A stretch of DNA of 64,000 bases from Candidatus Sericytochromatia bacterium (GTDB lineage: Bacteria > Cyanobacteriota > Sericytochromatia > UBA7694): positions 6,084 through 70,083 of the forward strand of contig JBFWRL010000007.1 in assembly GCA_050248915.1 (NCBI GenBank). The letters are read 5' to 3'. Positions 1 through 58,961 of this stretch are shown in pieces; positions within the stretch are counted from its first letter, which is position 1, and every line of letters starts with the position of its first letter. The translations under genes were made by a program, and so were the position numbers. Under the pieces are notes generated by a model that saw nothing but the letters and a program-made list of their open reading frames with translations, did not search any database and was not told where the DNA came from.

Positions 1-434
1 CCACCCTCGAAGGGGGCGATGTGCTGCGGGTCGGGACGACCTTTTTTGCGGGTCTCTCCAGCCGCACCAATGCAGCGGGTATTCAGGCCTTGAAGGCCTG
101 GGCTGAGCCCTTGGGGTACCGTGTCGTGCCAGTGGCAACCGAGGCCAGCTTGCACCTGAAATCGGCCTGCACCGCGATTGACGATCAAACCCTGCTGCTC
201 AACCCCGAATGGTTGGATAGCTCGGTCTTTAAAGGACTTAAAATCATCCCAGTCGCCCCGGAAGAACCCGCTGCGGCCAATGTGCTGCGGGTGGAGCAGC
301 ACCTCTGTGTGCAAACGGGCTTTCCACGCACCGCTGAAAAACTGCAAGCGTTGGGAAAATCCGTGGTGTGGATGGATACCTCCGAGTTGAGCAAAGCCGA
401 AGGGGCTTTGACCTGTCTGAGTATTTTATTCTAA
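1..434 (+). CDS. Amidinotransferase-superfamily protein (DDAH / arginine deiminase-like), 5'-truncated at window edge
   Basis: C-terminal ...SELSKAEGALTCLSIL resembles the catalytic Cys region of dimethylarginine dimethylaminohydrolase-type enzymes. The ORF runs in frame to the window start. Confidence 0.6.
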   Translation, partial: TLEGGDVLRVGTTFFAGLSSRTNAAGIQALKAWAEPLGYRVVPVATEASLHLKSACTAIDDQTLLLNPEWLDSSVFKGLKIIPVAPEEPAAANVLRVEQHLCVQTGFPRTAEKLQALGKSVVWMDTSELSKAEGALTCLSILF

Positions 435-441
435 GACACAC

Positions 442-1191
442 TCACTGAAGGCCTTCGTACTGAGGCCAAGTTTCGCCATCTGCCAATTCAGTCCCTGGTG
501 GCAAAACCGACAGGGGTTCAATTCGGCAATTCTGGCCGATCGTCACCAGCGGAGCCAAGCTACAATCCGCCCCAATCCAGGTACCATCGCCAATTTTGAC
601 ATGGGGGCCAACTTGGCAATTGCCGCCCATATTCACATTTTTGCCAATCTGAATCGGCCCCAGATGTAATTTTTCGGTGCTCATAAAATGCCCACTGAGC
701 AATGAGCCAGAGCCAATTAAGCTATCGCTGCCAATTTCAATCAGGGGCAAATCGACAAAGTCAACATCTGCCGAAATTGAGGTCGAAAAGCCGACTTTGC
801 CCCCCAGGGCGCGAAAGGCCAGCCAGCGCAAGGTCGCCGAGTAGAGAATCAGGTTTTTGAGCGGATGCAGCCAAATCAGGCGATTGAGCGTAAAATGCAG
901 GGTCCAGACATAAAAACCAGTGCTGCCTGGCACGGCGTGATAACCGCTTTCGAGGGGGGGCAAAAACAACCTCAAGAGCCTGACCACCAGAAAAAGTCCC
1001 AGCAGATAAACCAGCCCCAAACTGGGCAGCAAAACCCCCAGCAAAACCAGAGGCAGGTGCATCCAGAGCCATTGGCCGAGCAACAAAGCCCCCCCCAGGG
1101 CCAGGCCATGACTGAGGCTAAAAAGCAGCCACAAAACGCCATCATATAAGAGAAAGGGCATCAGCATGAGATTGGTTCTAAAACCTGCCAA
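442..1191 (-). CDS. Membrane-anchored hexapeptide-repeat (left-handed beta-helix) transferase-like protein
   Basis: N-terminal ~100 aa are hydrophobic. C-terminal IGxxxxIG hexapeptide repeats (IGKNVNMGGNCQVGPHVKIGDGTWIGADCSL...). The 5' end overlaps the upstream gene's stop, so the true start is probably an internal Met (aa 9 or 11). Confidence 0.6.
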   Translation of the reverse strand: MAGFRTNLMLMPFLLYDGVLWLLFSLSHGLALGGALLLGQWLWMHLPLVLLGVLLPSLGLVYLLGLFLVVRLLRLFLPPLESGYHAVPGSTGFYVWTLHFTLNRLIWLHPLKNLILYSATLRWLAFRALGGKVGFSTSISADVDFVDLPLIEIGSDSLIGSGSLLSGHFMSTEKLHLGPIQIGKNVNMGGNCQVGPHVKIGDGTWIGADCSLAPLVTIGQNCRIEPLSVLPPGTELADGETWPQYEGLQ

Positions 1192-1958
1192 TGCTGCAAA
1201 TCAAGGGCATGTTTTTGGCTCTGACCTGTAAAAAAGCGACAATCTACACTCAAACGGGTACGTTCAGAGAGATTGGGCGCTGAGGCATGTAAAACCCAGC
1301 GATTGAGCAGCAAGACATCACCCGGCTCAAATTCGGGTCGCAATTGGGGATGGCCCAGATCTGCCACCCCCGACTGCCAGAAGAGCTTGGCCGTATTTGG
1401 GCTGGGAGGTATCAGCGGTTGCTCAGGCAAATCGCCGGTGCCCTCATGGATGACCACCCCCCCACATTGGGCATCAATGGGAACGAGCGGCACCCAAATC
1501 GTGACAAAGTCCAACATATGGCGGTTATAAGAAATGTCTTGGTGGGGAGGCACCCCAGACCAACGGTGACCGGGCAAGACAAAACGGGCTGTGGGAGGCA
1601 TATGCATTTTGACCGTTTGCCCCGGAAAAACAGCCGCCAAAAGGTCTTGTATCCCCGCACTGCGGGGAATGGTCCAAAGCACAGGGTTTAAACGGGTTTC
1701 CAGGCTAAAATGCCCCACCAACATTTGGCGAATGTCTGCTGGCAAGGCCTCAAAACGGGCCGGGTCTTGCTCACAGGCTTCAAGAAAATCGCCCAAAGCC
1801 TGTAGATCAGGCAGATTGAGAATGTTTTGTAATTGCTCTGTGCATTGCAGCAGGGCCAAATTGAGAAACTCAGACAAGCGGGCGATCTCTGCCGGGCTCA
1901 AAACCCCGCGACAGACTTGGTAACCGTGTTGCTGAAAAAAAGTCAAATCCACGCTCAT
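1161..1958 (-). CDS. Phytanoyl-CoA dioxygenase (PhyH) family Fe(II)/2-oxoglutarate oxygenase
   Basis: HxD motif (PPHQDISY), distal His (LHASAPN) and N-terminal LTxxQxxxxGY typical of the PhyH family. The start is moved to the internal ATG at 1958 to avoid a 40-nt overlap with the upstream methyltransferase; the long ORF reaches 2006. Confidence 0.7.
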   Translation of the reverse strand: MSVDLTFFQQHGYQVCRGVLSPAEIARLSEFLNLALLQCTEQLQNILNLPDLQALGDFLEACEQDPARFEALPADIRQMLVGHFSLETRLNPVLWTIPRSAGIQDLLAAVFPGQTVKMHMPPTARFVLPGHRWSGVPPHQDISYNRHMLDFVTIWVPLVPIDAQCGGVVIHEGTGDLPEQPLIPPSPNTAKLFWQSGVADLGHPQLRPEFEPGDVLLLNRWVLHASAPNLSERTRLSVDCRFFTGQSQKHALDLQHWQVLEPISC

Positions 1959-1966
1959 GGTAGCAC

Positions 1967-2743
1967 TCACGGTTTGACCAAATAGCCGGCGGGCACATTG
2001 GTCCAAGGCAGGGTTTTGACTTGCAAAGTGGGTTTGTCGGCCAAAAATTCATCCACGGCTTGGGTCTCTCCGGGCCACTCTTTGATCGCGTATTCATCAA
2101 AGAGCAAAATGCCACCGCGCGAGAGTTTGGGCCAAAAGGCCTCCAGCGCGGCCCGCGTGGGCTGATACAAATCGCAGTCAAAATGCACCAAAGAAAAACG
2201 CACGCCGGGGTTGTCGGCCACAAAGGCCGGAGCTGTGGTCTCAATATTGCCTTCGATCAGTTTGACCCGTGCTTTCCAGGGCACAAAGCGATCGGCATCA
2301 AAGAGTTCAATGGCCGATTGCAATTCGTCATAAAAGGCCTCCGGCGAAAAGCCGCCCACTTCTTTGTGGGTCTGGGCATGATTGGCCCCGTCTGCATCAT
2401 CGATCTGGGTAAACCCACGCCAATTGTCAAAACCATAGACCGTTTTGGTGCGGTCACCGACACAGTGGGCCTCCAATAAGTTGGCCCAGGTCATCAGCCC
2501 CAGGCCGCGAAAGACCCCCAATTCGGCAATATCACCGGGCACTTCCAAGGTCTGCAAAAAGAGTTGGCTGTGGGCCAAAAAACGCTTGAGCCACTGGCGG
2601 CGGGCCAAAACGGGAAAGAGCTGGATCGCCTCCAGGGGCGAAATGCCAAAACGTTCGCAGTGAGCGGCGATGCGCTCTTCGAGTTCGGCATCGGGACCGG
2701 TTTTTTTAAAGCCATCAAAGGGACGTTCAGCCATGGGGCCCAC
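1967..2743 (-). CDS. TylF/MycF-family SAM-dependent O-methyltransferase (macrocin-O-methyltransferase-like)
   Basis: Class I MTase fold with the TylF/NovP signature ...VHFDCDLYQPTRAALEAFWPKLSRGGILLFDEY... Confidence 0.8.
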   Translation of the reverse strand: MGPMAERPFDGFKKTGPDAELEERIAAHCERFGISPLEAIQLFPVLARRQWLKRFLAHSQLFLQTLEVPGDIAELGVFRGLGLMTWANLLEAHCVGDRTKTVYGFDNWRGFTQIDDADGANHAQTHKEVGGFSPEAFYDELQSAIELFDADRFVPWKARVKLIEGNIETTAPAFVADNPGVRFSLVHFDCDLYQPTRAALEAFWPKLSRGGILLFDEYAIKEWPGETQAVDEFLADKPTLQVKTLPWTNVPAGYLVKP

Positions 2744-2955
2744 CTGTGTGAAAATTCAGATGTTTCAGTATAACACCGAGGGGAAGCTGGCATTTCCCCA
2801 AAATTACCGCTTCCCGCTAAAATAGAAACAGCCCAACCCAGAGGAATCCCCCCATTCACACGCCCCCTTTTTGCCAAATACTCCCGCCGCCCCTTTCCCT
2901 GCCTGCCATTCGCGGCTATTTCAGCCTGGGCCTTGCTCCCGCTGATTACACAGCA

Positions 2956-3588
2956 GTGGCACAGGCCCTGCAGGCAGACTTGCACCTGCCCGAAAATTTG
3001 CACAGCGCGGTGCCCAAGCGGCAGGCCCTGTATTTGGCTGGGCGCTACTGTGCCCGCGAAGCACTCAAACAAGCCGGGCTGAACCCACCCCCGGAAGTGG
3101 GTACAGGCCCTGTCGGAGAGCCGATCTGGCCCCCAGGCTGGGTGGGCAGCATCAGCCACAGCTTAACCCATGTTTCAGCTGCGGTCGCCCCCCTCGCAGC
3201 CTGTCGGGGCATCGGGCTCGACAATGAAACGCCGATGTCCGAAAAAACCCTGAAGGCCGTCAAAGACAAGATCAGCACAGCAAATGAACGGATAAGACAG
3301 CCCGATTCGCTCGCTGAGATAGATTATTACACCCTCTTGTTTTCAGCCAAAGAGAGTCTTTACAAGGCCCTGTATCCCACAGTTCAGAAGTTTTTTGACT
3401 TTCAGGCAGCCGAATTGCAACAGACAGCCCCTGACCAGTTTGAAATCACGCTGTTAGAAACCCTGCACCCCGAACTGCCCTCAGACCAATATTTTCGGGT
3501 CTATTTCCGTTTCGCAGCAGCACAAATCTTCACCGCCGTGCTTTGGCAGACAGCCCCACCCCACAAACGAAATTTAATCGAAACTTGA
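2956..3588 (+). CDS. 4'-phosphopantetheinyl transferase, EntD/Sfp type
   Basis: Motifs WPxGWVGSISHS, GIGLD-E and FSAKESLYKA match the PPTase family signatures. GTG start; the real start may lie further upstream. Confidence 0.8.
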   Translation: MAQALQADLHLPENLHSAVPKRQALYLAGRYCAREALKQAGLNPPPEVGTGPVGEPIWPPGWVGSISHSLTHVSAAVAPLAACRGIGLDNETPMSEKTLKAVKDKISTANERIRQPDSLAEIDYYTLLFSAKESLYKALYPTVQKFFDFQAAELQQTAPDQFEITLLETLHPELPSDQYFRVYFRFAAAQIFTAVLWQTAPPHKRNLIET

Positions 3589-3648: not shown

Positions 3649-4695
3649 ATGACCCATCAACTGGGGGACAGCTTAAAAAATCCCCAATTGCTCTTTTCGC
3701 GTTTTTTTAAAACAGCCCCAACCAGCGGTCCTTCTGCTCCCCCCCTAGCCGTTCCCCCCCCCATTTTGGCCATCCCCCCCAGCGCTCCCCGCAGCGATTT
3801 GATTCAAATGGGTGCCGTCTCGCAATCAACCACGGGCAAAGCCCTGAGTTTGCCCTTTCTCGAAGAGCCACAAACCCAGACCCACATTCAGGCCCAAACG
3901 CAGACCTCAAATGCTGGCCCTTTTCCCAAGATCAGCTTTCAAAAACCCGTGCAATTGCGCGAAGGCGTGCAGATGTATATGCCCCAAAATCCGGTTAAAC
4001 CCGATGGCACAGTCGATTTAATTATCCAATTTCGCGGCGACGTGCCCCAGCGCTATGGCGAAGGCGGCGTCAATGCCGTGGTCGTGAGTGCCGAAACAGC
4101 GGGGTTGTCGGCAGCCATGATGGAAAAATTTGGCCAAAGCAGCTTTGTGCCCCAAATCATGGAAACCGTTTTGGCCAAACTGCGCAAACAATACGGCCCC
4201 CAGGTTCAGCTTGGCCGCTTGGCAATGGGCAGCTTCAGCGCCGGTTACGCCCCTTTGCAGGTCGCCCTCGCCAACCCAGCGGTGGCCGCCCGCACCGATG
4301 CTGTGGTTGTGCTCGATGGCATTCACTACGGCAGTGCAGGCAAACCCAACCCAGCTGCCCACGCGCCTTTTGTCGATTTTGCCAAAGCGGCGAGCCAGGG
4401 CCAAAAACTGATGGTGATCAGCCATTCGGCGATCAAACCGACCTATGCCAGTTCAACAGACGCTGCCGACTATATTCTCAAACAGGCCGGAGCCACCCGC
4501 CAAAGCAGTACAGCCCCCTCTGCGGCCTGGCAGTACACCAATCGCTATGGAGACAAAATTGCCCCCAACACGCGGGCCGATCGGGGCGATTTTCACGTCG
4601 AAGGTTATGCGGGCAATGTGGCCCGCAGCCATGTCGAACAGATCGATCATTTGGGCAATCTCTGGAACGCCTACCTCGCACCGCGCTGGCAATAA
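3649..4695 (+). CDS. Hypothetical protein with Pro-rich N-terminus, possible alpha/beta-hydrolase-like core
   Basis: Long ORF with coding-like composition. Low-complexity PPLAVPPPILAIPPSAP stretch. The GSFSAGY segment is only weakly lipase-like. Confidence 0.4.
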   Translation: MTHQLGDSLKNPQLLFSRFFKTAPTSGPSAPPLAVPPPILAIPPSAPRSDLIQMGAVSQSTTGKALSLPFLEEPQTQTHIQAQTQTSNAGPFPKISFQKPVQLREGVQMYMPQNPVKPDGTVDLIIQFRGDVPQRYGEGGVNAVVVSAETAGLSAAMMEKFGQSSFVPQIMETVLAKLRKQYGPQVQLGRLAMGSFSAGYAPLQVALANPAVAARTDAVVVLDGIHYGSAGKPNPAAHAPFVDFAKAASQGQKLMVISHSAIKPTYASSTDAADYILKQAGATRQSSTAPSAAWQYTNRYGDKIAPNTRADRGDFHVEGYAGNVARSHVEQIDHLGNLWNAYLAPRWQ

Positions 4696-4770
4696 CAGGC
4701 TTTACACTGCCCGCCTGCAAAAAGGTATAGTTAAAGAGCTGAATTTTTTCCCGAGAATGAGAGCCCACTC

Positions 4771-5178
4771 ATGAGTTCGTATAGCAATCTGGTTGAAATG
4801 CGCTCGATGATTCCCAAAGTGATTGATAAAATCACAATGGACAATTGGTTTCGCAATTCGGAATCGCTGGAAGCCTTGCTGGATCAACTGCGACAGCGTT
4901 TTCCCTATGCCGGACAAAAAGTCGATCGCGAAAATTATTTAGAGATTGCCAATTTTGCCCAAGACATGTCGGTTGAGCTGGTCATGAGCCTGAGTTATGG
5001 CGATTTGATCCAATTGCTCTGTGAAAACCCCTGGATGTTAACCACCGAAGCAGAATTGACCCTGATCGATATCTTTGAAGAAAAACTCGGAAAATCCACA
5101 GTGGCCTCGCTGATTGCCGTAGTGCTCTGCGAACATTTTTACGCTGAGCTGATTCTCAATGTGGAATGCTTGTTGTAA
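4771..5178 (+). CDS. Hypothetical acidic protein
   Basis: 135-aa ORF with no recognisable motif. Confidence 0.35.
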   Translation: MSSYSNLVEMRSMIPKVIDKITMDNWFRNSESLEALLDQLRQRFPYAGQKVDRENYLEIANFAQDMSVELVMSLSYGDLIQLLCENPWMLTTEAELTLIDIFEEKLGKSTVASLIAVVLCEHFYAELILNVECLL

Positions 5179-7129
5179 TCGGCTCCAGAGCAGAGGCTGA
5201 AAGAGCTACCGAGAGACCTGTCTGCAATTGGTGGTGGCGATCTTCCAAACCCAAAAGCGCGGGCACACCCATCTCGCGCAAGAGGCTGATGCCGCCGTTG
5301 AGATCGCTGCTTTGCCCCAAGACCACCGACGAGGTCTGTAAAAGCTGCAATAAAACACCGGGGTCCAGGTTTTGGGCCACCAGAATACTGCTCCAGGGTT
5401 TAAACTCTGCTGGCAGGGTCTCTTCGGGCCTTTGCGGGTGCCAAATCTGGCCTTCGCGTTCGTCCAATCCCAGGGCTGCCAGGGGCTTGGTCTGAACAGG
5501 CTGTGCCAAAGCCCCTTCGGCAAGCGGTTGTAAGGCATCAAAATCCCGGCGCCGCGAGGGCAAGGCCAACCCCGCCTGTTTTTGCCAAGCTTGCCGCAAT
5601 TTTTGGGTATATTCAGCCGGGATGCTGCCCCCTTGATCCAGCCATTGCACCTCTTCAAAATTCAAGAGCCAAAAATCGTCAGCCTGCGCCAATTGGCCCG
5701 CCTGAACCGCTTTGTCGATCAGCAACGCCATCTGTTTGCGCACCTGAAAAATCGCCCAGAGGCCATCGGATCTGAAATGTTCACGTTGGTCCAATAGCGC
5801 TGCCAAGAACAGCCAGAAAGGCCGAAAAAAGAGGGTTTTCCAATTCTGTTCAGGTTCCGAACGAAAGACCTGCCAGGGCAAAAACAGGCGTTCCAGAATC
5901 AGGGCGGGCCGATCGGCAAAACGCTGGGCCGCCGGAGAAAGCTCTTGAAAACCACGGTGGCCAAATTGCGACAGGAAAACTTGCCAACTCTGTTTAAAAC
6001 TGGGGTGGTTGGGCAATTTTTCAGGCAGCATATCCGGGGTTTTGACCAAAATAGTCTGGGCCAGATCGCGCAGATTTTGCAGGGCCATCAAAAACCCCGA
6101 AAGGGGATTGAGATGGGATTTTTGCAAGATCTCCAGCACATTTTTACGGGCCAGATAATCGCAGCCCCGCGCCAATAAAAGCGAGGAGCGAAAACTGTGT
6201 TGAAAAAAAGCTGCGTAAAGATCTTCCAATTGACGGCAATAGCCCAAGAGCCCCACATGGGGCACCTGAAAGGTTTCTAAAAAATAGCTGCGTTGGCGCT
6301 CCAAGGCCTTTAATTCCTGACGGCAAATTTGCCACCAACGGGCCCAGGAAAGGTCTTTGACCTGTTGGTTTAAACGTTCGAGCAGCCCCTGATGCACATA
6401 CAAATGCCCCTGAAAAAGATCAAAGGCCCGCTCTGCCACAGGCAAGTCAGGCCAGAAATCTTTGGCCCATTGTTGGGCCACAGTTTCGGAGATACTGCTG
6501 CAGATCAGATTAAACAGGGGCTCAGGCGCCGCCGCCAGCGATTCCTCCAGGGCCAAGAGTTGCCAGTCTCCGGCTTGAAAAAGGATCTCGTCAACCGGGC
6601 AAAGCCCTGTCAGCCAGAGAGTTTCGCCATCATCGATCCATTCGATGCGCAGTTTTTCGGCAAAAACCCGTTGGCGAATCTGCGCAGACAGATGCTGTAA
6701 ACGCGCCCACAGATCTGACTCGCTGGGAAGCTCCCAAAGCGGGCGTTGGTCGAGCAGACTTTCTTGGCGCTCTGTGGGCTCAGCACCGCCCAGCAAGGAG
6801 ACAGACAGCTGATCTTGATTATAATCGGGGTCCAAGCGCAATGTGCCTTGGGCCTGAATCTGGACAGGCCAATGCTGCAATAAAATGCCTGTTTGAGCGG
6901 CTTTATCCGCTTTTTCGCCCAAGCCATACAGCGCTCGCTGCTGCCAGATGCGGTCGGCGGTTTCTGGCAAAGGCAAAGGTGAGGTCGCTGCCTGGTCTGG
7001 GCTTTGACAGACCCAACTTGGCAGCACAGCCAACTCAGCGGCCACAGCCCGAAACAAGAGCAGACACTCCATGCCGGGGCGAAAGTGTGGGTCAAAATTT
7101 AAATCTGAAAAAAGAGATTGCCAATACAT
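5156..7129 (-). CDS. Large hypothetical protein (657 aa) with a degenerate PEP-utilising 'swivel' domain-like C-terminus
   Basis: The C-terminal ...SDLNGGISLLREMGVPALLGL resembles the GGRTSHAAIIARELGIPAVVG mobile domain of PEP-utilising/rifampin-phosphotransferase enzymes, but the catalytic His is missing. The rest is alpha-helical with no match. Confidence 0.45.
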   Translation of the reverse strand: MYWQSLFSDLNFDPHFRPGMECLLLFRAVAAELAVLPSWVCQSPDQAATSPLPLPETADRIWQQRALYGLGEKADKAAQTGILLQHWPVQIQAQGTLRLDPDYNQDQLSVSLLGGAEPTERQESLLDQRPLWELPSESDLWARLQHLSAQIRQRVFAEKLRIEWIDDGETLWLTGLCPVDEILFQAGDWQLLALEESLAAAPEPLFNLICSSISETVAQQWAKDFWPDLPVAERAFDLFQGHLYVHQGLLERLNQQVKDLSWARWWQICRQELKALERQRSYFLETFQVPHVGLLGYCRQLEDLYAAFFQHSFRSSLLLARGCDYLARKNVLEILQKSHLNPLSGFLMALQNLRDLAQTILVKTPDMLPEKLPNHPSFKQSWQVFLSQFGHRGFQELSPAAQRFADRPALILERLFLPWQVFRSEPEQNWKTLFFRPFWLFLAALLDQREHFRSDGLWAIFQVRKQMALLIDKAVQAGQLAQADDFWLLNFEEVQWLDQGGSIPAEYTQKLRQAWQKQAGLALPSRRRDFDALQPLAEGALAQPVQTKPLAALGLDEREGQIWHPQRPEETLPAEFKPWSSILVAQNLDPGVLLQLLQTSSVVLGQSSDLNGGISLLREMGVPALLGLEDRHHQLQTGLSVALSASALEPITTSIPH

Positions 7130-7233: not shown

Positions 7234-8616
7234 ATGAGCACAGCGGCACGCCCGTTTTCTCCCGAAATAGCAGATTTGCAAATGCAACTCAGGGGTTTGA
7301 CCCTGACAAACACTCCGCAATGGGTGCAATTGCAAGTTCCTCTCCAGCACTTTTCAGCCGTGGCTTGGCTGACAAGTCAATCTAGCCCCTTTCGTTTTTT
7401 TTGGCGCAACCGCGATGGCAATGAAACGCGGGCCGGTTGGGGAGAGGCCTGGGAGATACAAACCCAGCACACGGACGAAACAGCGGCCTGCCTGAAGAGC
7501 TTGTCTGCAGAATTGGCTTTGGCTCCCCCTGAAATTCGCGCTTATGGCGGCCTGGCGTTTCCCTCTGAAGCCCCGCGCCATTCAGCCTGGCAGACCTTTG
7601 CTCCCTGCCGTTTCGTGATTCCGCGCTTCGAAATTGTGAATGAAGGCCAGTCCAAACTCTGTTTGAACGCCCGTTTGGCAGATTCTCACGATCTGCACGC
7701 TTTAGAACGGGCCCTGTATGAATTGCAAATCCCATTTCAAGAGCCTGAAGCCCCCCACTTGCCCCGTTTAGAATTTAAACAATGCCAACCCGATCGTCCA
7801 GGCTGGGAAGCGCAAATTACAGCGCTCTTACAGGCCTTTGAACAGAAAGAACTGCAAAAGGCCGTTTTGGCACGCGAAGTGGCTTATCTGGCTCAAACCC
7901 CTTTTTCAGGCCTGGATTTGCTCTTGACTCTCTTAAACCGCGATTGGCCTGGCTATCTCTATTATTTTCAGTGGTCACCCGAGACTTTTTTTGCGGGCCT
8001 CTCCCCTGAGCGCCTCTACCAGCGCACAGGCCGCTCCCTGTCAACCGAAGCCTTGGCTGGCACCCGCCGATCCAGTGCCGAAAAAATCCGGCAAGACCAA
8101 TGGCAACATGAATTATTGACCAACCCCAAAGAACGGCACGAACACAATTTGGTACGGGAGTTTTTAGAGACAGCCATGAAAACACTCTGTGACTCGGGAA
8201 CAGAGACGGCCCCTGTCGAACTGGTCAAAAGCGGCCCCGTTCAACACTTGCGTCAAGCCTTGAAGGGGCATTTAAGCCCCCAGACAACAGATGGCGATAT
8301 TCTGGCCTGTTTGCACCCGACCCCTGCAGTTGGGGGCGCCCCCCGCCAAGCCGCTCTGACCTGGTTGGCAAAGCACCAAAAATGGGATCGCGGCTGGTAC
8401 AGCGGACCTGTTGGCTGGATCAGTCGGGATCAAGCGGAATTTGCCGTGGCCCTGCGCTGTCTCTTGGCCGATCGGCAAATGCTGCGTTTTTTTACAGGGG
8501 TTGGCATTGTCAAAGGCTCGGAAGCCCAATCGGAATGGAACGAACTCAATGCCAAGCTGGAGACGCTTTTGCAATTATTTCACCAATCACCGGAGAGAAT
8601 GTTAGACTGGGAGTAG
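7234..8616 (+). CDS. menF: Isochorismate synthase (MenF/EntC family chorismate-binding enzyme)
   Basis: Chorismate-binding signature ...ILACLHPTPAVGGAPRQAA..., with length and overall layout of MenF/EntC. Confidence 0.8.
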   Translation: MSTAARPFSPEIADLQMQLRGLTLTNTPQWVQLQVPLQHFSAVAWLTSQSSPFRFFWRNRDGNETRAGWGEAWEIQTQHTDETAACLKSLSAELALAPPEIRAYGGLAFPSEAPRHSAWQTFAPCRFVIPRFEIVNEGQSKLCLNARLADSHDLHALERALYELQIPFQEPEAPHLPRLEFKQCQPDRPGWEAQITALLQAFEQKELQKAVLAREVAYLAQTPFSGLDLLLTLLNRDWPGYLYYFQWSPETFFAGLSPERLYQRTGRSLSTEALAGTRRSSAEKIRQDQWQHELLTNPKERHEHNLVREFLETAMKTLCDSGTETAPVELVKSGPVQHLRQALKGHLSPQTTDGDILACLHPTPAVGGAPRQAALTWLAKHQKWDRGWYSGPVGWISRDQAEFAVALRCLLADRQMLRFFTGVGIVKGSEAQSEWNELNAKLETLLQLFHQSPERMLDWE

Positions 8617-16708: not shown

Positions 16709-17542
16709 TCAATCGAGAGGGGAGCCGTTCTGCCCTGCACCGGAGGCCTGGGCTGCACTTCGCAGCACCCATTCTCGCCCCTTTAAACCGGGCCCATAAG
16801 CGGGGTGGGTCAGTCGGATTTCAAGGCTGTAACGGGGCTCAAACATACTCTCAGTCAGCCACGTGCGGTGAAAGAGAAAAGAGTCAAAAACCAGCAGATC
16901 GCCGGGCTCCATCTCGGGTTGCCAAAACTGCTCCCGCGAAGCCTGGGCTTGCAAAGCTGAAACATCACGCTGCTGGTAGAGGGGGGTAAGCGGATCGAGG
17001 TTGAGTTCAAACCAAACCCGCTGTTGGGGCTTCAACCAGAGTTCCAAACCAGGGGCATTGCGCCCGCAAGGATCCAGCGGAATCCAAAAGTTGAGAGCGG
17101 GTCGCCCCCCCAAGAACTCCGCGTCCTGATGAAAGGGAATTTGGCGTTCGGGCCAAAAGGGGTGCTGGCGGCGCGGCTGGCTGTTTTTGTCAATCAAAAA
17201 AAGTGAAGACCCAAAAATAACACTTAAAAAGGGCTGCAAGCTGGGTATACCCAAGAGACAGGTATACAAATCCGCTTCCATGGCCGGGTTCTGCGAGAGA
17301 GGCAAAAGCCCCTCTTCGAAAGGCAAATGGCCATACTGAAAGAGTTTGTGATAAGCCGCTTGTGACATCTCGCCATTTTGCCAAGCCTGATCCGCTTCAA
17401 GATAAAGCGCTTCCAACTCTGCTTTTGCAAGCTGCAAAAGTGGCAGCGGCAAGATCTCCCGCAACAAGAAACAGCCCTGTTGCCGCAAAGACGCAAGCAG
17501 CACCTCTGGCAGCGGAATTGCGCTGAAATCAGGCAATGTCAC
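16709..17542 (-). CDS. Second PhyH-like Fe(II)/2OG dioxygenase family protein
   Basis: HxD (IPFHQDAEF) and distal His (FDSFLFHRT) with the spacing of phytanoyl-CoA dioxygenase-type cupins. Confidence 0.55.
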   Translation of the reverse strand: MTLPDFSAIPLPEVLLASLRQQGCFLLREILPLPLLQLAKAELEALYLEADQAWQNGEMSQAAYHKLFQYGHLPFEEGLLPLSQNPAMEADLYTCLLGIPSLQPFLSVIFGSSLFLIDKNSQPRRQHPFWPERQIPFHQDAEFLGGRPALNFWIPLDPCGRNAPGLELWLKPQQRVWFELNLDPLTPLYQQRDVSALQAQASREQFWQPEMEPGDLLVFDSFLFHRTWLTESMFEPRYSLEIRLTHPAYGPGLKGREWVLRSAAQASGAGQNGSPLD

Positions 17543-17582: not shown

Positions 17583-20180
17583 CTATAACTTTTGAATAGA
17601 ACGAGCCAAAAAAGGACGATCTGACTGAAAGTTTTGAATACTTTTACGCAAAACTTCATCGACAGTTTCTGTACGCCGCGTATCGAAGCCTGTTAATTGC
17701 TTTAAATGATACTCTGCATTGCGACGGATTTTTTCAACCTGTTGAGCCACCTGTGCTCGCTCCGTCTGGCGGGCATTCTGCTGTTCTGCCAACAATAGGT
17801 TGATTTGCTCCGTGGTTTTGAGAACCTGCTCTAACCACTTTTGGGTCGCTTGCTCAAGTTCTCGATTATCTGGGCGGGGGGATTGGCTCAAAAGGGCCTG
17901 GGCCTCATTGGCCTTGGCAATCAAAGCCTGAAGTTCCTCATCCAATTGCTGTTTCAGGGCTTCATTCAAGCTATCCGAAACAGCAAACAAATCAGCTATC
18001 AGAGACTGTAAATCTTGGGCCTGTTGTAACAAAAATGCGCTCAGTTGGGCCAGTAAATGGCCACGCATTAAACTCTCAGTGGCTTGACTGAGCGTCTCTT
18101 CTGCTTGGGCCAGAAGAGCGGGCAGCCGCTCAAAAATAGCATTGGCTTCACTGCGTAAATCACCAAGCAACTCGATGGGCAAGAGCCCTGCCAGATCCGG
18201 ATTCTGAGATACGTCTTCCAGTTCTGAATTGGCCTTTTTGAGGTCTTTCATTTTATCTTTAACAACAGACACAAGTTCTGCCTGTTCTTTCACACGGGCA
18301 TTTAAAGTCGCCGCTTCTTGATCAGCCTGGATTTGTAAGCGCGTCACCGTGGCCCCACTCGCCGCCAATTTTGCATCGAGTTCTTTTAACTTGGCTGCTT
18401 GGCCTTGTAAAGCGGCCTGAAAATAGTCCCCCAAAAGCTCAGGACCCACCGACTGCCCATTGCGCTTAAAGGTGGGTGAACCACTGCCGAGTTCAAGCGA
18501 AAGACCATATTCAGCCAATAGTTTATTCAGATCAGCCAATTTTTCAGCCGAACCAAATTGCTGTAAAAAGGAGGCATCCCATTGCCCCGATTTGGCTTGT
18601 TGGAGCAAGCTATTGAGCATCCGTTGTTTTTCGGCTTCCGCTTGCGCTTGTGCCGCAGCTTCTTGTTGTTGCTTTTGCGCCGCAGCCAAATCATCCAAGG
18701 TCTGATCATATTTGACCCGCAATTGCTGAATATCTGCATCATTGCGTTTGATTTCTTCTTCGAGCGCTTTTACCTCAGTCAACAAAAGTTGGTTTCTGGC
18801 CATCACCTCAAAGGCCTGGGCCAAACCTTCCACCTGTGTCAGGGTAAATCCTGACGCTCTGGGGTTTTGTATCCGCTGAATCAGTTGGGCAACTTGTTTT
18901 AATTGGCCCAAATCTTTGCTAGAAATCTCTTCTTTATTGGCCAAATTGTAGAGTTTGCCGTCCTGAAAACGCAATCCCAAGGTGCGCAAGAGTGCATTTT
19001 CTTGGTTGGACAGAGTCTGCCCTGGCTGCCCCAATTTATCTAAAATCGTGGCCAGTTGAGCCATTTCGGGCTTGTTGTAATTGCGCATAGCCTGAACCAA
19101 AACATAGCCCATTTTGGATTTAAGATCGAGATCTGCCACCACTCTTTGCTGAGTGTTCCCATCGATCAACACCGTGTTTGAGCCTGGGCCGCGTCCTTCA
19201 ACGATGCCCAAACGTACCTGCTCTTGAAAGAGTTTGGCCAGATCAGAGCCCTGATTGTGGATCAATCCGGTCAAGCCAGCAATATCACCATCTTCAAAAT
19301 TCAGACGCCGCAGCTCATTGTCATTCATTTTGAGCATTTGGTCATAAAATTGATTCCGATCGTTGACCAAAACAGCTTGGGGACTACTTGGCCCCCCCCC
19401 TTTGCTGGCGTTTGCTGGGGTTTTCGCCTGTTGCTCACTCCAAGCCTGATAGCCCCAGGTCACAGGACGCAATTCGGAAATAACCGCCGCTGAAAGCAGA
19501 GCCGGTCGCCGAGCCAAAGCGGGAACCTTTTCAAAAATAGCCTGCAGTTGGGCCTTGCTTGGACGCTCTTGGGTCGCAGTCAAAGTCTGAACCAGTTCAT
19601 TGACCGTGGCTTGGGCCAAAGCTGGGTTTTTCAGGTGTAGGCGCTGCAATTCATGGGTCATTTCACTTCTGAGCAGCTGCACCTGCACATCTTCAATCAG
19701 TTTGGGTTCGGGCACAGTGGCTGACAAGCGCTTTTGTTCTTCTGAATTCAGGGGTTTCTGCTGACGGACTTTTTCCATGATCTCCAAGAGCTGATCCACT
19801 TCTTCTGGCGATTTGCCCTGAATGGCATTGACCGTCTTTTGAATATGGGGCAGCCGGGCCCAATAGCTATCGATCTTAAAACTTTTACCCGCTTCCGCAG
19901 ACAGCGTTGTGTCGGAGCGATCCATTTTGGCCAAAGCCGCTTGGACCACATTTTCAACAGGTTCGCCTTTTTCCAATAAATTGATAGCCGCAACCACATC
20001 GGGATTGTCGAGGTTGGCAATAAAGGTCAGTTCGTCCTGGGTTGGGTTGGGCCCCAATTCCTGCCGCAGTTCATGCAGTTCTTTTGCGGTGACTTTGCCA
20101 TCATTTTTGAGCGCCTGATGGGCTTTTTGCAGCAGTTGAGAAGAAAGGGGGCCTGTGCCTGTGTGCTCAGAACGAATCAT
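17583..20180 (-). CDS. Large coiled-coil protein (865 aa), unknown function
   Basis: Long heptad-like Q/E/K/L-rich segments. No enzymatic motif. Confidence 0.5.
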   Translation of the reverse strand: MIRSEHTGTGPLSSQLLQKAHQALKNDGKVTAKELHELRQELGPNPTQDELTFIANLDNPDVVAAINLLEKGEPVENVVQAALAKMDRSDTTLSAEAGKSFKIDSYWARLPHIQKTVNAIQGKSPEEVDQLLEIMEKVRQQKPLNSEEQKRLSATVPEPKLIEDVQVQLLRSEMTHELQRLHLKNPALAQATVNELVQTLTATQERPSKAQLQAIFEKVPALARRPALLSAAVISELRPVTWGYQAWSEQQAKTPANASKGGGPSSPQAVLVNDRNQFYDQMLKMNDNELRRLNFEDGDIAGLTGLIHNQGSDLAKLFQEQVRLGIVEGRGPGSNTVLIDGNTQQRVVADLDLKSKMGYVLVQAMRNYNKPEMAQLATILDKLGQPGQTLSNQENALLRTLGLRFQDGKLYNLANKEEISSKDLGQLKQVAQLIQRIQNPRASGFTLTQVEGLAQAFEVMARNQLLLTEVKALEEEIKRNDADIQQLRVKYDQTLDDLAAAQKQQQEAAAQAQAEAEKQRMLNSLLQQAKSGQWDASFLQQFGSAEKLADLNKLLAEYGLSLELGSGSPTFKRNGQSVGPELLGDYFQAALQGQAAKLKELDAKLAASGATVTRLQIQADQEAATLNARVKEQAELVSVVKDKMKDLKKANSELEDVSQNPDLAGLLPIELLGDLRSEANAIFERLPALLAQAEETLSQATESLMRGHLLAQLSAFLLQQAQDLQSLIADLFAVSDSLNEALKQQLDEELQALIAKANEAQALLSQSPRPDNRELEQATQKWLEQVLKTTEQINLLLAEQQNARQTERAQVAQQVEKIRRNAEYHLKQLTGFDTRRTETVDEVLRKSIQNFQSDRPFLARSIQKL

Positions 20181-20271
20181 GAAAAATCTCCTTGAAGAAA
20201 AATGGCTTGTTTGAGATGTATACCCTGCCTCCCCAAGAAAAAAACGGGCTTAGTCCATTTTTATAAAAAGC

Positions 20272-21390: not shown

Positions 21391-21402
21391 TGCTCGCTTC
21401 TC

Positions 21403-23892: not shown

Positions 23893-24063
23893 AAATGTCT
23901 CCCTAAAAATGGTTTCTAGTTCGAGTGTACGTAAAAAGCAGCCTCTGCCAAATGATCGGTATCGCCCCAATTATTGATTCCAATCAAAGATCTGAGAGAG
24001 CCATTCTTCCCTGCAGAGATTTGTTACAATGCTTGCAACACACATAGCAACAGGAAAAAAACC

Positions 24064-36437: not shown

Positions 36438-37553
36438 TTGAAACAAATGCACAAGCCCATCCCCTATGTCGATTTAGCCGCCCAACATGCCCCGCTCAAA
36501 GCTGAATTGCTTTCAGCCGTAGCAGAGGTGCTCGATTCGGGCCAATTTGTGCTTGGGCCCGCCGTGGCGGAATTTGAAAAGGCCCTGGCGGAGCTGTGCC
36601 AAACCCCCCATGCGATTGGCGTCAATTCGGGTACCGACGCGCTGGTTCTGGCTTTGCAGGCCATGGGCATCGGCCCCGGGGATGAGGTGATTACCCCCAC
36701 CAATTCGTTTGTGGCCTCGGCCAGTGCGATTGCCCTGGTGGGTGCCCGGCCTGTGCTGGCTGACGTCGGCGACGATTACCAACTGAGCCCCCAGGCTTTC
36801 GAAGCGGCGATCAGCCCCCACACCAAAGCGGTGATCCCCGTGCATCTAACCGGCCACCCTGCGCCCATGGGGGAGATTCTAGAAATCGCCAAGGCCCATC
36901 AATTGTGGGTACTCGAAGACGCCGCCCAGGCCATTCGCGCCGAATACCAAGGCCAACGGGTGGGCAGCTTGGGCCACGCGGGCGCCTTTAGTTTGCACCC
37001 GCTCAAAACCCTCAATGCCTGTGGCGACGGCGGTGCCCTCACCCTCAGCAACCCCGAATGGCTTGATGCAATTCTGCTGCGCCGCAACCTCGGCCTGCGC
37101 AGCCGCAACGACTGTGAGGTCTGGAGCAGCAATTCCCGGCTCGACAGTTTGCAAGCGGCCATGTTGCAAGTCAAACTGCGCCACCTCGAAAGCTGGACCC
37201 TCAAACGCCGTGCCAATGCCGCCCTCTACCGCACATGTTTGGCAGACATTCCCCAAGTTAAATGCCCCATCGAAACCCCTCTCGCTTTTGCGGTCTACCA
37301 CACCTTTGTGATTCGGGCCCAGCAGCGCGACAAACTGCAGGCTTTTTTAAGCGAAAAAGGCATCGGCACCGCGATTCACTACCCTGTACCGATTCATTTG
37401 CAGACGGTGGGCAAAGCCCTGGGCTACCAATACGGTGACTTTCCTCAGGCCGAGCAACAGGCAAAAGAGATCTTGAGTCTGCCAATTTACCCCGAATTGA
37501 ATTCAGAGCAGATTTTGAGGGTATCTGAAGCCATTGGGCAGTTTTATCACTAA
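36438..37553 (+). CDS. DegT/DnrJ/EryC1/StrS-family PLP-dependent (sugar) aminotransferase
   Basis: N-terminal IPYVDLAAQHAPLKAEL...LDSGQFVLGP, GTDAL, and overall DegT-family collinearity. Confidence 0.88.
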   Translation: MKQMHKPIPYVDLAAQHAPLKAELLSAVAEVLDSGQFVLGPAVAEFEKALAELCQTPHAIGVNSGTDALVLALQAMGIGPGDEVITPTNSFVASASAIALVGARPVLADVGDDYQLSPQAFEAAISPHTKAVIPVHLTGHPAPMGEILEIAKAHQLWVLEDAAQAIRAEYQGQRVGSLGHAGAFSLHPLKTLNACGDGGALTLSNPEWLDAILLRRNLGLRSRNDCEVWSSNSRLDSLQAAMLQVKLRHLESWTLKRRANAALYRTCLADIPQVKCPIETPLAFAVYHTFVIRAQQRDKLQAFLSEKGIGTAIHYPVPIHLQTVGKALGYQYGDFPQAEQQAKEILSLPIYPELNSEQILRVSEAIGQFYH

Positions 37554-48190: not shown

Positions 48191-48201
48191 GGGTTTTCTC
48201 C

Positions 48202-56899: not shown

Positions 56900-56930
56900 A
56901 CCCGATAGGCTGAAAAGAGGTAAATCATGC
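56900..56930 (+). promoter_or_regulatory. Candidate sigma-28 (FliA)-type promoter upstream of fliK
   Basis: TTAAGTTA-N12-CCGATAG against consensus TAAAGTTT-N11-GCCGATAA. Ends immediately before the fliK ATG. Confidence 0.35.
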
Positions 56931-58465: not shown

Positions 58466-58476
58466 AGGAGTTTTAA

Positions 58477-58902: not shown

Positions 58903-58961
58903 AGATTTTAAACCATGAAACAGTTTATTTTAAGCAATGACCACTCAGGGAGGCAGATATC

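What the first reader, a model, noticed from the sequence alone, without database searches (positions are those of the whole stretch)
1..3588. Tailoring-enzyme set suggesting a small-molecule pathway fragment: amidinotransferase-fold, hexapeptide transferase, PhyH dioxygenase, TylF O-methyltransferase, EntD/Sfp PPTase
Five consecutive genes encode enzyme families that usually decorate secondary metabolites or modified amino acids. A PPTase implies a carrier-protein-dependent synthase, but no NRPS/PKS/FAS is present in this window. The core may lie upstream of position 1, or the PPTase may serve a distant synthase. PhyH and TylF overlap by about 40 nt in the long ORFs.
Basis: partly seen in the sequence, partly recalled or inferred. 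Interest (0 to 1): 0.5.

Follow-up and report, generated by a model that had tools for sequence, protein, structure and literature searches.

The report
Sugar-tailoring operon remnant with unrelated neighbours
The five enzyme genes are real but do not form one pathway: three make up an operon that most likely decorates a cell-surface sugar and has cleanly lost its aminotransferase gene in this genome, while the PPTase and the DDAH-like gene belong to neighbouring transcription units.

Summary
All five family assignments hold (Pfam, NCBIfam and PDB searches). The window comes from a Candidatus Sericytochromatia MAG. The genes fall into three transcription units. (i) A DDAH-like hydrolase gene follows a giant protein gene with no Pfam match. 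(ii) TylF-PhyH-LbH on the minus strand form a tightly packed operon. (iii) The PPTase gene starts a separate plus-strand unit.

No NRPS, PKS, adenylation or carrier-protein gene was found in the 3.3 kb recovered upstream, in the 64-kb window, or in the 10-kb flanks of five related loci.

In all five relatives that show this stretch the operon is DegT aminotransferase-TylF-PhyH-LbH. In the window the DegT gene has been removed exactly from start codon to start codon. The methyltransferase resembles CalS11, which methylates a nucleotide-sugar. It is 61% identical to a Leptospira interrogans gene that sits beside a PhyH homologue in an O-antigen-type locus.

The "hexapeptide transferase" is unusual: a two-helix membrane hairpin plus an LbH domain, equal to one repeat of the Pls/PosA polymerisation domain. 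Elsewhere its relatives are fused to, or sit beside, FAAL and carrier-protein genes.

Most likely reading: a remnant of an amino-sugar tailoring operon. PPTase adjacency is seen in only one other genome. Moderate-to-low interest.

The parts
1..434 (+). 3' part (143 of 254 codons) of a DDAH-like hydrolase gene. It follows a giant protein gene (>990 aa, no Pfam match) after a 3-nt gap. It is not part of the tailoring operon.
   Evidence: The full protein from L001 matches NCBIfam dimethylargininase at E=2.7e-61 (207 bits, below the 340-bit equivalog cut-off) and P. aeruginosa DDAH 1h70 at E=5.5e-39. H162 and C249 are present. The gene travels with the giant-protein array and is absent from L002.
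442..1161 (-). Membrane-anchored LbH acyltransferase, 239 aa. It has a two-helix membrane hairpin, a strand, helices, and an LbH domain interrupted by a small hairpin that carries the invariant H158. This equals one repeat of the Pls/PosA polymerisation domain. It is the last gene of the operon.
   Evidence: TIGR02353 E=1.2e-12, residues 9-213; AF2 pLDDT 96.9, pTM 0.91.
1161..1958 (-). PhyH-family Fe(II)/2-oxoglutarate dioxygenase, 265 aa. Its stop codon overlaps the LbH start codon by 1 nt (TGATG).
   Evidence: H139-Q-D141, H224 and R233/R235 are present. It is 36% identical to the PhyH gene of the Leptospira rfb-type locus.
1967..2734 (-). TylF/CalS11-like metal-dependent sugar O-methyltransferase, 255 aa. 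It is now the first gene of the operon.
   Evidence: CalS11 E=1.3e-30 over the full length; 61% identity to the Leptospira rfb-locus gene; about 70% identical orthologues in many phyla.
2732..2783 (-). Leader and start codon inherited from the deleted DegT aminotransferase gene. The deletion scar is at the ATG (2732-2736, CCATG microhomology).
   Evidence: Window 2783->2732 matches L005 7268-7319 (94% identity). Window 2736->2600 matches L005 8438-8574 (94% identity). The DegT coding sequence in between (L005 7320-8437) is missing.
2956..3588 (+). EntD/PptT-type (Sfp-class) 4'-phosphopantetheinyl transferase, 210 aa. It is the first gene of a separate plus-strand unit, transcribed divergently from the operon.
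   Evidence: EntD 7bcz E=4.5e-26; motifs. It is adjacent to the operon only in the window and L005.
3649..5178 (+). Two genes of unknown function (348 aa and 135 aa) downstream of the PPTase on the same strand. They are conserved with it in L005.
   Evidence: There is no Pfam, NCBIfam or PDB match.
36438..37553 (+). Paralogous DegT/DnrJ/EryC1 aminotransferase, 42% identical to the operon-type DegT of relatives. It is the only possible in-window substitute for the deleted gene.

Best explanation
Window 442-2734 (minus strand) is what remains of a four-gene operon, DegT-TylF-PhyH-LbH, conserved in Sericytochromatia/'Blackallbacteria'. It most likely tailors an amino-deoxy-sugar at the nucleotide-sugar stage, or just after, for a cell-envelope glycoconjugate.

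Proposed steps in the ancestral operon (all inferred from homology):
1. A DesV/WbpE/QdtB-like PLP aminotransferase aminates a 3-keto NDP-sugar.
2. A CalS11-like Mg-dependent methyltransferase O-methylates a sugar hydroxyl.
3. A PhyH-type Fe/2OG dioxygenase hydroxylates the sugar or its acyl substituent. This may create the hydroxyl that is then methylated.
4. A membrane-anchored LbH acyltransferase, probably a homotrimer with a cytoplasmic catalytic domain, acylates the amine or a hydroxyl. The donor would be a thioester: acetyl/acyl-CoA or, as its relatives suggest, an acyl carrier protein.

In this genome the DegT gene was removed exactly from its ATG to the TylF ATG, so TylF now uses the DegT leader. 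The remaining three genes are intact and show no sign of relaxed selection.

The DDAH-like gene belongs to the convergent giant-protein gene array. The PPTase heads its own divergent unit. Both are neighbours by position, not pathway members.

Shown: families, operon structure, synteny, the deletion, purifying selection. Inferred: substrate class, order of steps, acyl donor, trimer.
For: Families and motifs:
-.

Operon structure:
- There is an 8-nt gap between TylF and PhyH and a 1-nt stop/start overlap between PhyH and LbH.

Synteny:
- DegT-TylF-PhyH-LbH is present in L002, L003, L005, L006 and L007.
- The precise DegT deletion in the window is documented.

Sugar link:
- The best PDB match of TylF is CalS11 (E=1.3e-30, full length). 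CalS11 acts at the sugar-nucleotide stage (PMC4760980). All other PDB hits are sugar O-methyltransferases.
- TylF is 61% and PhyH 36% identical to an adjacent gene pair in an L. interrogans locus that also holds RmlC, FdtA, DegT, sugar C-methyltransferases, epimerases and GT2.
- Sixteen PhyH and TylF homologues outside Sericytochromatia share exact longest-contig lengths, some as short as 3.3-6.3 kb. This indicates a widespread paired module.
- The DegT of relatives best matches NDP-3-keto-sugar aminotransferases: 7b0d E=4.5e-95, DesV 3.6e-85, WbpE 7.5e-73, QdtB 1.8e-71.
- In L002 the divergent gene resembles UDP-GlcNAc 3-dehydrogenase (E=8.8e-53).

Selection:
- dN/dS is 0.05-0.16 for all three genes in window-versus-relative comparisons.

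Bystander genes:
- PPTase adjacency is seen only in the window and L005.
- The DDAH-like gene is absent from L002 and is separated from the operon by an ion-channel gene in L003.
Against: - None of the Sericytochromatia loci has a nucleotidyltransferase, 4,6-dehydratase or glycosyltransferase next to the operon. The sugar and its acceptor are therefore unidentified.
- The LbH protein is not a WbpD/QdtC-type soluble N-acetyltransferase. It belongs to a membrane family whose sampled members outside this clade are fused to, or sit beside, FAAL and carrier-protein genes, in lipid/polyketide-like contexts.
- In a second Sericytochromatia clade the LbH gene occurs without TylF, PhyH or DegT, next to HMG-CoA reductase, a GHMP kinase and a FAAL-PKS.
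- Without DegT, the N-acylation step proposed for the ancestral operon has no obvious amine in this genome, unless the 42%-identical paralogue at 36438-37553 substitutes.
- PhyH substrates cannot be predicted from sequence. The only PDB hit is PtlH at E=1.8e-8.
- No biochemical data exist for any of these orthologues.
Confidence: 0.55

Rival explanations
1. The cassette is part of a carrier-protein-dependent pathway whose FAAL/adenylation enzyme and carrier protein are encoded elsewhere. The neighbouring PPTase activates that carrier. The membrane LbH off-loads the acyl thioester onto an acceptor, as the Pls/PosA terminal domain does. PhyH and TylF hydroxylate and methylate the acyl chain or lipid product.
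For: - The LbH family is fused to FAAL-(ACAD)-PP-binding in P0013, P0092, P0111 and P0126. The C-terminus of P0013 is 44% identical to the window protein over 234 aa.
- Stand-alone members sit beside PP-binding and FAAL/AMP-binding genes, or converge on a FAAL-ACP-KS-AT-KR PKS.
- A PhyH gene lies next to the P0126 fusion.
- The PPTase is adjacent in the window and in L005.
- An AMP-binding gene lies upstream of the giant-protein array in L002.
Against: - No PP-binding or AMP-binding ORF occurs in the 64-kb window, the 3.3 kb upstream, or the 10-kb flanks of L002-L007, apart from the cut AMP-binding gene about 10 kb away at the edge of L002.
- PPTase adjacency is absent in L002, L003 and L006.
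- The PhyH next to P0126 is only 24% identical over a 98-residue local alignment (E=0.003), so it is not an orthologue.
- TylF and PhyH orthologues occur as a pair in a plainly sugar-type locus with no LbH homologue.
- The conserved partner gene is a sugar-type aminotransferase.
Confidence: 0.2
2. The three remaining genes are a non-functional or re-purposed relic. Loss of DegT broke the pathway, and TylF-PhyH-LbH persist only because the deletion is recent.
For: - DegT is deleted only in this lineage.
- Synonymous divergence between the window and L005 is uneven along the operon: dS is 0.43 for TylF, 0.85 for LbH and 1.5 for PhyH. In L005 versus L006 the values are 0.27, 0.27 and 0.43. This suggests recombination or turnover at this locus.
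Against: - All three ORFs are intact, with catalytic motifs present.
- Pairwise dN/dS of 0.05-0.16 is the same as among DegT-containing relatives.
- The deletion places TylF precisely behind the DegT leader and ATG, which preserves expression signals.
- A paralogous DegT exists in the window.
- Pairwise dN/dS cannot isolate the period after the deletion.
Confidence: 0.1
3. There is no shared function at all. The five genes are a chance juxtaposition of unrelated enzymes.
For: The DDAH-like gene and the PPTase do behave as independent neighbours.
Against: - TylF, PhyH and LbH are translationally coupled or nearly so.
- They keep the same order in six loci spanning 65-88% LbH identity.
- The TylF-PhyH pair recurs across phyla.
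Confidence: 0.05

Closest known systems
Nucleotide-sugar 3-amino-sugar pathways of the WbpB/WbpE/WbpD and QdtA/QdtB/QdtC (FdtA/B/C) type
   Same: - A DegT-family 3-aminotransferase (in relatives) is encoded together with an LbH acyltransferase.
- In L002 a GFO/IDH/MocA 3-dehydrogenase-like gene sits next door.
- The same logic applies: a keto-sugar is aminated and the amine is then acylated.
   Different: - The LbH here is membrane-anchored and belongs to the Pls/PosA-related family, not the soluble WbpD/QdtC type.
- The operon carries two extra genes, a methyltransferase and a dioxygenase.
- The aminotransferase is missing in the window.
- No isomerase, dehydratase or glycosyltransferase lies nearby.
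CalS11 (TDP-rhamnose 3'-O-methyltransferase) and the TylF/MycF/NovP sugar O-methyltransferases
   Same: - The match covers the full length (E=1.3e-30).
- The score is above the PF05711 cut-off.
- The acidic motifs HFDCD and FDEY are conserved.
- CalS11 acts on the nucleotide-sugar (PMC4760980).
   Different: - The gene is not in an antibiotic cluster.
- It belongs to a very conserved clade (about 70% identity across Geobacter, Bryobacteraceae, Magnetococcales, Lachnospiraceae and Leptospira) that pairs with a PhyH gene.
- The substrate of this clade is unknown.
C-terminal polymerisation domain of Pls/PosA cationic homo-poly-amino-acid synthetases (TIGR02353)
   Same: - TIGR02353 is the top NCBIfam hit, covering both the membrane helices and the LbH domain.
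- The AF2 model shows a two-helix membrane hairpin, a strand, helices, and an LbH domain interrupted by two extra strands. This matches the repeat unit described for PosA (PMC10522769).
- Relatives are fused downstream of adenylation and carrier domains.
   Different: - It has one repeat, not three.
- The polypeptide has no A or T domain.
- It scores 47 bits against a 423-bit cut-off.
- The fused relatives carry FAAL (fatty-acyl) rather than amino-acid adenylation domains.
- Its genomic context is sugar-type.
LpxD/LpxA acyl-ACP-dependent LbH acyltransferases
   Same: - These are the best PDB sequence hits for the LbH part (LpxD E=3.9e-8).
- They share the logic of transferring an ACP-bound acyl group to an (amino-)sugar nucleotide at the membrane surface.
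   Different: - Similarity is limited to about 55 residues of generic LbH coils.
- LpxD has no membrane hairpin and has different N- and C-terminal domains.
EntD/PptT/Sfp-class PPTases
   Same: Both domains (4PPT_N and ACPS) and the motifs are present. EntD 7bcz matches at E=4.5e-26.
   Different: No cognate synthase or carrier protein is nearby. The scores are below all NCBIfam equivalog cut-offs. Its client proteins are unknown.

Membership tests
Pls/PosA-family NRPS terminal (polymerisation) domain, TIGR02353 | Score at or above the curated cut-off (423 bits) | tested here: not met
   47 bits, E=1.2e-12, one stretch covering residues 9-213 against profile positions 6-194 of 695.
Pls/PosA-family NRPS terminal (polymerisation) domain, TIGR02353 | Three tandem repeats of (two membrane helices + LbH) in one polypeptide | tested here: not met
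   The 239-aa protein has a single repeat. Triple-repeat proteins exist among distant relatives (P0134, P0143).
Pls/PosA-family NRPS terminal (polymerisation) domain, TIGR02353 | Adenylation and thiolation domains upstream in the same protein | tested here: not met
   The protein has no A or T domain, and none is present within the window or the flanks. Relatives P0013, P0092, P0111 and P0126 do have FAAL and PP-binding domains.
Pls/PosA-family NRPS terminal (polymerisation) domain, TIGR02353 | Repeat-unit fold: membrane hairpin, strand, helices, five-turn LbH interrupted by two strands | tested here: met
   The AF2 model (pLDDT 96.9) shows H2-35, H38-65, E73-76, H81-118 and an LbH from about 120 to 230 with E158-160/E164-167. 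This was compared with the published description (PMC10522769). No solved structure covers the whole unit.
TylF/MycF/NovP O-methyltransferases (PF05711) | Pfam score above the gathering cut-off, and a full-length match to a characterised member | tested here: met
   59.6 bits against a 23-bit cut-off. CalS11 matches at E=1.3e-30 over residues 16-247.
TylF/MycF/NovP O-methyltransferases (PF05711) | SAM- and metal-dependent O-methylation of a sugar hydroxyl | not testable with these tools
   Only the motifs can be seen (GVFRG, HFDCD, FDEY).
PhyH Fe(II)/2-oxoglutarate dioxygenases (PF05721) | Pfam score above the cut-off, and a His-x-Asp...His iron triad (not the His-x-Ala/Gly of halogenases) | tested here: met
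   42.2 bits against a 22-bit cut-off. H139-Q-D141 and H224 are present, and R233/R235 follow.
Sfp/EntD-class PPTase | 4PPT_N and ACPS domains with the G-I-G-x-D and (F/W)(S/C/T)xKE(S/A)xxK motifs | tested here: met
   for the domains. GIGLD at residue 85 and FSAKESLYK at residue 129.
Sfp/EntD-class PPTase | Dedicated to a clustered NRPS/PKS carrier protein | tested here: not met
   No carrier protein is present in the window or in the flanks of L001-L007. Adjacency to the cassette is not conserved. Whether it is the genome's only PPTase could not be tested.
Dimethylarginine dimethylaminohydrolase (DDAH) | NCBIfam equivalog cut-off and the catalytic Cys/His | tested here: inconclusive
   207.5 bits against a 340-bit cut-off. 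However, there is a full-length match to P. aeruginosa DDAH (E=5.5e-39), and H162 and C249 are present.
NRPS/PKS-type biosynthetic gene cluster | A core synthase (C/A/T or KS/AT/ACP domains) within or next to the tailoring genes | tested here: not met
   None is present in the window, the 3.3 kb upstream, or the 10-kb flanks of five syntenic loci.
O-antigen / nucleotide-sugar tailoring locus | Co-location with NDP-sugar activation, dehydratase, isomerase or glycosyltransferase genes | tested here: not met
   These are absent next to the operon in all Sericytochromatia loci. They are present around the TylF/PhyH orthologues in Leptospira. A GT2 gene lies about 49 kb away in the window.

The most novel reading that the evidence does not exclude
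The 239-aa protein would represent an uncharacterised, widespread class with 551 cluster representatives at E<=1e-10. Members would be stand-alone, single-repeat homologues of the Pls/PosA membrane polymerisation domain that assemble as homotrimers. They would transfer carrier-protein-bound acyl groups, loaded by FAAL-type enzymes in trans, onto membrane-proximal acceptors. In Sericytochromatia this chemistry would have been recruited into a sugar-tailoring operon to make an N- or O-acylated, methoxylated sugar lipid or glycoconjugate. That would link thiotemplate chemistry with glycan decoration.
Probability: 0.3. Interest if true: 0.55.

Novelty: new variant of a known kind. Interest (0 to 1): 0.35.

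Why it matters
For the finding as it was posed, little changes. There is no hidden NRPS or PKS, and two of the five genes are bystanders.

Two things are worth keeping.

1. The "hexapeptide transferase" belongs to a large, unstudied family of membrane LbH acyltransferases. These correspond to one repeat of the epsilon-poly-lysine / delta-poly-ornithine synthetase polymerisation domain, for which no experimental structure exists. A small stand-alone homotrimeric version would be a tractable model for that chemistry. It may also define a new way of attaching acyl groups at the membrane.

2. The TylF-PhyH pair is a highly conserved module, with about 70% identity for the methyltransferase across phyla. 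It is present in the Leptospira interrogans O-antigen-type locus, and its product is unknown.

The start-codon-to-start-codon loss of DegT is a neat natural example of operon remodelling.

Tried and rejected
- Exact-sequence look-ups with the longest ORFs of LbH and TylF found nothing because their starts were wrong. The 348-aa neighbour gave the identical Logan contig L001, which provides 3.3 kb of upstream sequence.
- A look-up of P0001 also failed.
- No tRNA genes and no Rfam families are present in the window.
- The promoter/terminator scan was no better than shuffled sequence.
PPTase context in other relatives therefore could not be sampled.
- Foldseek against the PDB returned only generic LbH proteins (gamma-carbonic anhydrases, maltose/galactoside acetyltransferases, LpxD) with TM-score at or below 0.48. 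The afdb50 library was not available.
- The first AF2 run, with 9 sequences, was poor (pLDDT 69). The run with 59 sequences was excellent.
- Literature searches for TIGR02353, for FAAL with hexapeptide and transmembrane, and for PhyH with O-antigen and Leptospira found nothing relevant.
- I considered and rejected the idea that the PhyH next to the FAAL-ACP-LbH fusion P0126 is an orthologue. It is 24% identical over a 98-residue local alignment, E=0.003.
- I considered that the 244-aa and 414-aa unknown proteins in the Leptospira locus might be LbH homologues. They are not.
- A CmcI/CmcJ-style 'hydroxylate then methylate' analogy is from memory only. CmcI did not appear among the PDB hits of TylF.
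- An E. coli AcpP tblastn against the window and loci found nothing.

Full report
**Source and gene calls.**
The window comes from a Candidatus Sericytochromatia MAG, a non-photosynthetic sister lineage of Cyanobacteria. The LbH protein is 100% identical to an NCBI entry named 'MAG: DapH/DapD/GlmU-related protein [Candidatus Sericytochromatia bacterium]'. A Logan contig, L001, is identical to the window over 11,646 bases and extends 3,308 bases upstream of window position 1. Gene calls on that contig, checked against the conserved N-termini of relatives, are:

| Gene | Window coordinates | Strand | Size |
|---|---|---|---|
| DDAH-like | ...-434 | + | 254 aa in full |
| LbH | 442-1161 | - | 239 aa |
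| PhyH | 1161-1958 | - | 265 aa |
| TylF | 1967-2734 | - | 255 aa |
| PPTase | 2956-3588 | + | 210 aa |

**Observation.**
All five family assignments are confirmed with scores above the curated Pfam cut-offs. NCBIfam and PDB searches refine them.
- The first gene is a full-length homologue of P. aeruginosa DDAH (E=5.5e-39), with H162 and C249 present.
- The methyltransferase matches CalS11 over its full length (E=1.3e-30).
- The PhyH protein has the hydroxylase-type H139-x-D141...H224 triad.
- The PPTase is EntD/PptT-like with intact motifs.

The 40-nt PhyH/TylF overlap is an artefact of taking the longest ORFs. With the conserved ATG there is an 8-nt gap. PhyH and LbH overlap by one base, TGATG.

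No NRPS, PKS, FAS, adenylation or carrier-protein ORF is present in the 64-kb window.

**Upstream test.**
It holds the rest of the DDAH-like gene and, 3 nt before it, a >990-aa low-complexity protein with no Pfam or NCBIfam match. In relatives this protein is the last of three giant proteins of unknown function (about 858, 1058 and 1281 aa). The first has a P-loop (GGYGKT) and looks like a STAND-type regulator. No synthase is there.

**Synteny.**
One scan of GTDB species genomes plus exact-protein look-ups gave eight Sericytochromatia/'Blackallbacteria' loci. A tblastn map shows three points.
- *Core.* The conserved core is DegT aminotransferase-TylF-PhyH-LbH, found in L002, L003, L005, L006 and L007.
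- *DDAH-like gene.* It always follows the 1281-aa giant gene and converges on LbH. It is missing from L002. In L003 a glutamate-receptor-type channel gene separates it from LbH.
- *PPTase.* The PPTase and its two unknown downstream genes (348 aa and 135 aa) lie beside the operon only in the window and in L005. In L006 the neighbour is a 300-aa protein with no Pfam match, followed by Big_5, TPR and HTH proteins. In L003 the neighbours are a small unknown protein and a glyoxalase. In L002 the neighbour is a GFO/IDH/MocA oxidoreductase that resembles UDP-GlcNAc 3-dehydrogenase.

The 'five-gene set' is therefore three units joined by position.

**A clean gene loss.**
The window lacks DegT. Window 2783->2732 aligns with the DegT leader and ATG of L005 (94% identity). 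Window 2736->2600 aligns with the start of L005 TylF.
- Relatives at DegT: ...GGTGGCCCCCATGATTCGC
- Relatives at TylF: ...CACCATGGCTGAACGT
- Window: ...GGTGGGCCCCATGGCTGAACGT

This is a start-codon-to-start-codon excision across a CCATG microhomology. TylF now sits behind the DegT leader.

The three remaining genes are intact. Their pairwise dN/dS is 0.05-0.16, the same as among DegT-bearing relatives. Synonymous divergence between the window and L005 is uneven (TylF 0.43, LbH 0.85, PhyH 1.5), which suggests recombination at this locus.

A paralogous DegT, 42% identical, lies at 36438-37553.

**What the operon probably acts on.**
- The DegT of relatives best matches NDP-3-keto-sugar 3-aminotransferases: 7b0d, DesV, WbpE and QdtB, with E from 1e-95 to 1e-71.
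- CalS11, the closest solved relative of TylF, methylates TDP-rhamnose before glycosyl transfer (PMC4760980).
- The PhyH protein has hundreds of homologues at 40-45% identity.
- TylF has more than 1,200 homologue clusters at E<=1e-30; the 120 listed include about 70%-identical ones from Geobacter, Bryobacteraceae, Magnetococcales and Lachnospiraceae.
- Sixteen pairs from the two hit lists share exact contig lengths, some only 3.3-6.3 kb, so the two genes are commonly linked.
- The one context I could open is from Leptospira interrogans. PhyH (36% identity) and TylF (61% identity) are adjacent inside a locus with RmlC, FdtA, DegT, sugar C-methyltransferases, NDP-sugar epimerases/dehydratases and GT2. 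That is an O-antigen-type sugar locus with no LbH homologue.

This is the strongest evidence that TylF-PhyH is a sugar-tailoring module.

**The unusual acyltransferase.**
The LbH protein's best NCBIfam hit is TIGR02353, the terminal domain of Pls/PosA synthetases. The hit covers residues 9-213, so it includes the hydrophobic N-terminus.

A profile search of 1.84 billion representatives found 551 proteins at E<=1e-10. Most are stand-alone, 240-300 aa, and matched end to end.

Several relatives are C-terminal domains of larger proteins:
- FAAL-ACAD-PP-binding-LbH in P0013. Its terminal domain is 44% identical to the window protein over 234 residues.
- FAAL-PP-binding-LbH in P0092, P0111 and P0126.

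Stand-alone members that I could place sit next to carrier-protein genes:
- P0029 lies beside a PP-binding gene, a carboxyltransferase, a FAAL and KAS III genes.
- P0019 lies beside AMP-binding and PP-binding genes.
- In a second Sericytochromatia clade (L008, L010, L011) the gene follows HMG-CoA reductase and a GHMP kinase and converges on a 2,190-aa FAAL-ACP-KS-AT-KR PKS.

With a 59-sequence alignment AlphaFold gives a confident model (pLDDT 96.9, pTM 0.91). It shows a two-helix membrane hairpin, a strand, helices, and an LbH domain interrupted by two strands that carry the invariant H158. This matches the repeat unit modelled for PosA (PMC10522769).

The PDB holds only generic LbH matches.

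The protein is therefore not a member of the Pls/PosA family as defined. It has one repeat, no A or T domain, and scores 47 bits against a 423-bit cut-off. It probably works like one repeat: a membrane-bound transferase, presumably trimeric, that takes an acyl thioester. Arginines after the second helix suggest that the catalytic domain is cytoplasmic (sequence; inference).

**Synthesis.**
*Best explanation (confidence 0.55).* This is a remnant of an amino-sugar tailoring operon for a cell-envelope glycoconjugate. The steps would be amination (lost here), O-methylation, hydroxylation and membrane-proximal acylation. The DDAH-like gene and the PPTase are bystanders.

Against it stand the lack of any carrier or adenylation gene within 10 kb in six loci, the non-conserved PPTase adjacency, and the sugar context of the TylF/PhyH orthologues.

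The two readings overlap if the LbH N-acylates an amino-sugar from acyl-ACP, as LpxD does. That hybrid is my 'novel case' (probability 0.3).

*Not testable here:* whether this is the only PPTase of the genome; the substrates of any of the enzymes; and whether the giant proteins next door are related to the operon's product.

**Verdict.**
The locus is a new variant of a known kind. Interest is 0.35, and it comes from the stand-alone Pls-like acyltransferase and the conserved TylF-PhyH module, not from any hidden synthase.

Noticed in passing
L001 2-2974 (upstream of window position 1); L002 10720-20460; L003, L005-L007 equivalents: A conserved array of three giant proteins (about 858, 1058 and 1281 aa) with no Pfam match converges on the LbH gene in every window-clade locus that reaches that far (L004 and L001 are cut within or just past the 1281-aa homologue). 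The first has a P-loop (GGYGKT) and TPR-like repeats. The 1281-aa one has a Pro/Ala-rich stretch and is followed after 3-15 nt by the DDAH-like gene. In L002 an AMP-binding gene precedes the array.
   Followed up: partly
window 2732-2783: The DegT aminotransferase gene has been deleted exactly from start codon to start codon across a CCATG microhomology. TylF is left behind the DegT leader.
   Followed up: yes
window 442-2734 versus L005: Synonymous divergence is uneven along the operon: dS is 0.43 for TylF, 0.85 for LbH and 1.5 for PhyH. Among the relatives L005, L006 and L007 it is 0.27-0.48 for all three genes. This suggests recombination or mosaicism in the window lineage.
   Followed up: partly
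L010 6324-15991; L011; L008: In a second Sericytochromatia clade the LbH homologue is the last gene of an HMG-CoA reductase, GHMP kinase, 52-aa ORF operon. It converges, with a 4-nt overlap, on a 2,190-aa FAAL-ACP-KS-AT-KR PKS that is followed by radical-SAM/SPASM and thioesterase genes.
   Followed up: partly
L015/L016 10001-11556 (Leptospira interrogans): An adjacent PhyH-TylF pair (36% and 61% identical to the window genes) lies inside an rfb-type sugar locus. Contig-length coincidences between the two homologue lists indicate that this pair is widespread across phyla. I found no characterisation of it.
   Followed up: partly
window 5156-7129 (-): A 657-aa protein whose only recognisable part is a C-terminal PEP-utilising mobile domain (plus a weak Rph_4th hit). 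It is conserved next to an isochorismate synthase (MenF-like, 7234-8616) and a DUF3084 protein in L005.
   Followed up: no
window 16709-17542 (-), 51574-52419 (-), 55796-56800 (-): A second, weak PhyH-family ORF, a GT2 glycosyltransferase, and a Cupin_8/JmjC protein lie elsewhere in the window. None is linked to the operon.
   Followed up: no
window 56927-61127 (+): Flagellar hook-length control (FliK) and hook (FlgE) genes are present, so this Sericytochromatia genome encodes flagellar components.
   Followed up: no
window 17583-23970, 28347-30944, 44687-51536: Several more large ORFs (505-1167 aa) have no Pfam match or only marginal ones. The 865-aa ORF at 28347-30944 shares weak similarity (24% identity) with the 1058-aa giant protein family.
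   Followed up: no
L003 10721-11860: A prokaryotic glutamate-receptor-type ion channel gene (SBP_bac_3 + Lig_chan + Ion_trans_2) is inserted between the DDAH-like gene and LbH in the JGI relative.
   Followed up: no
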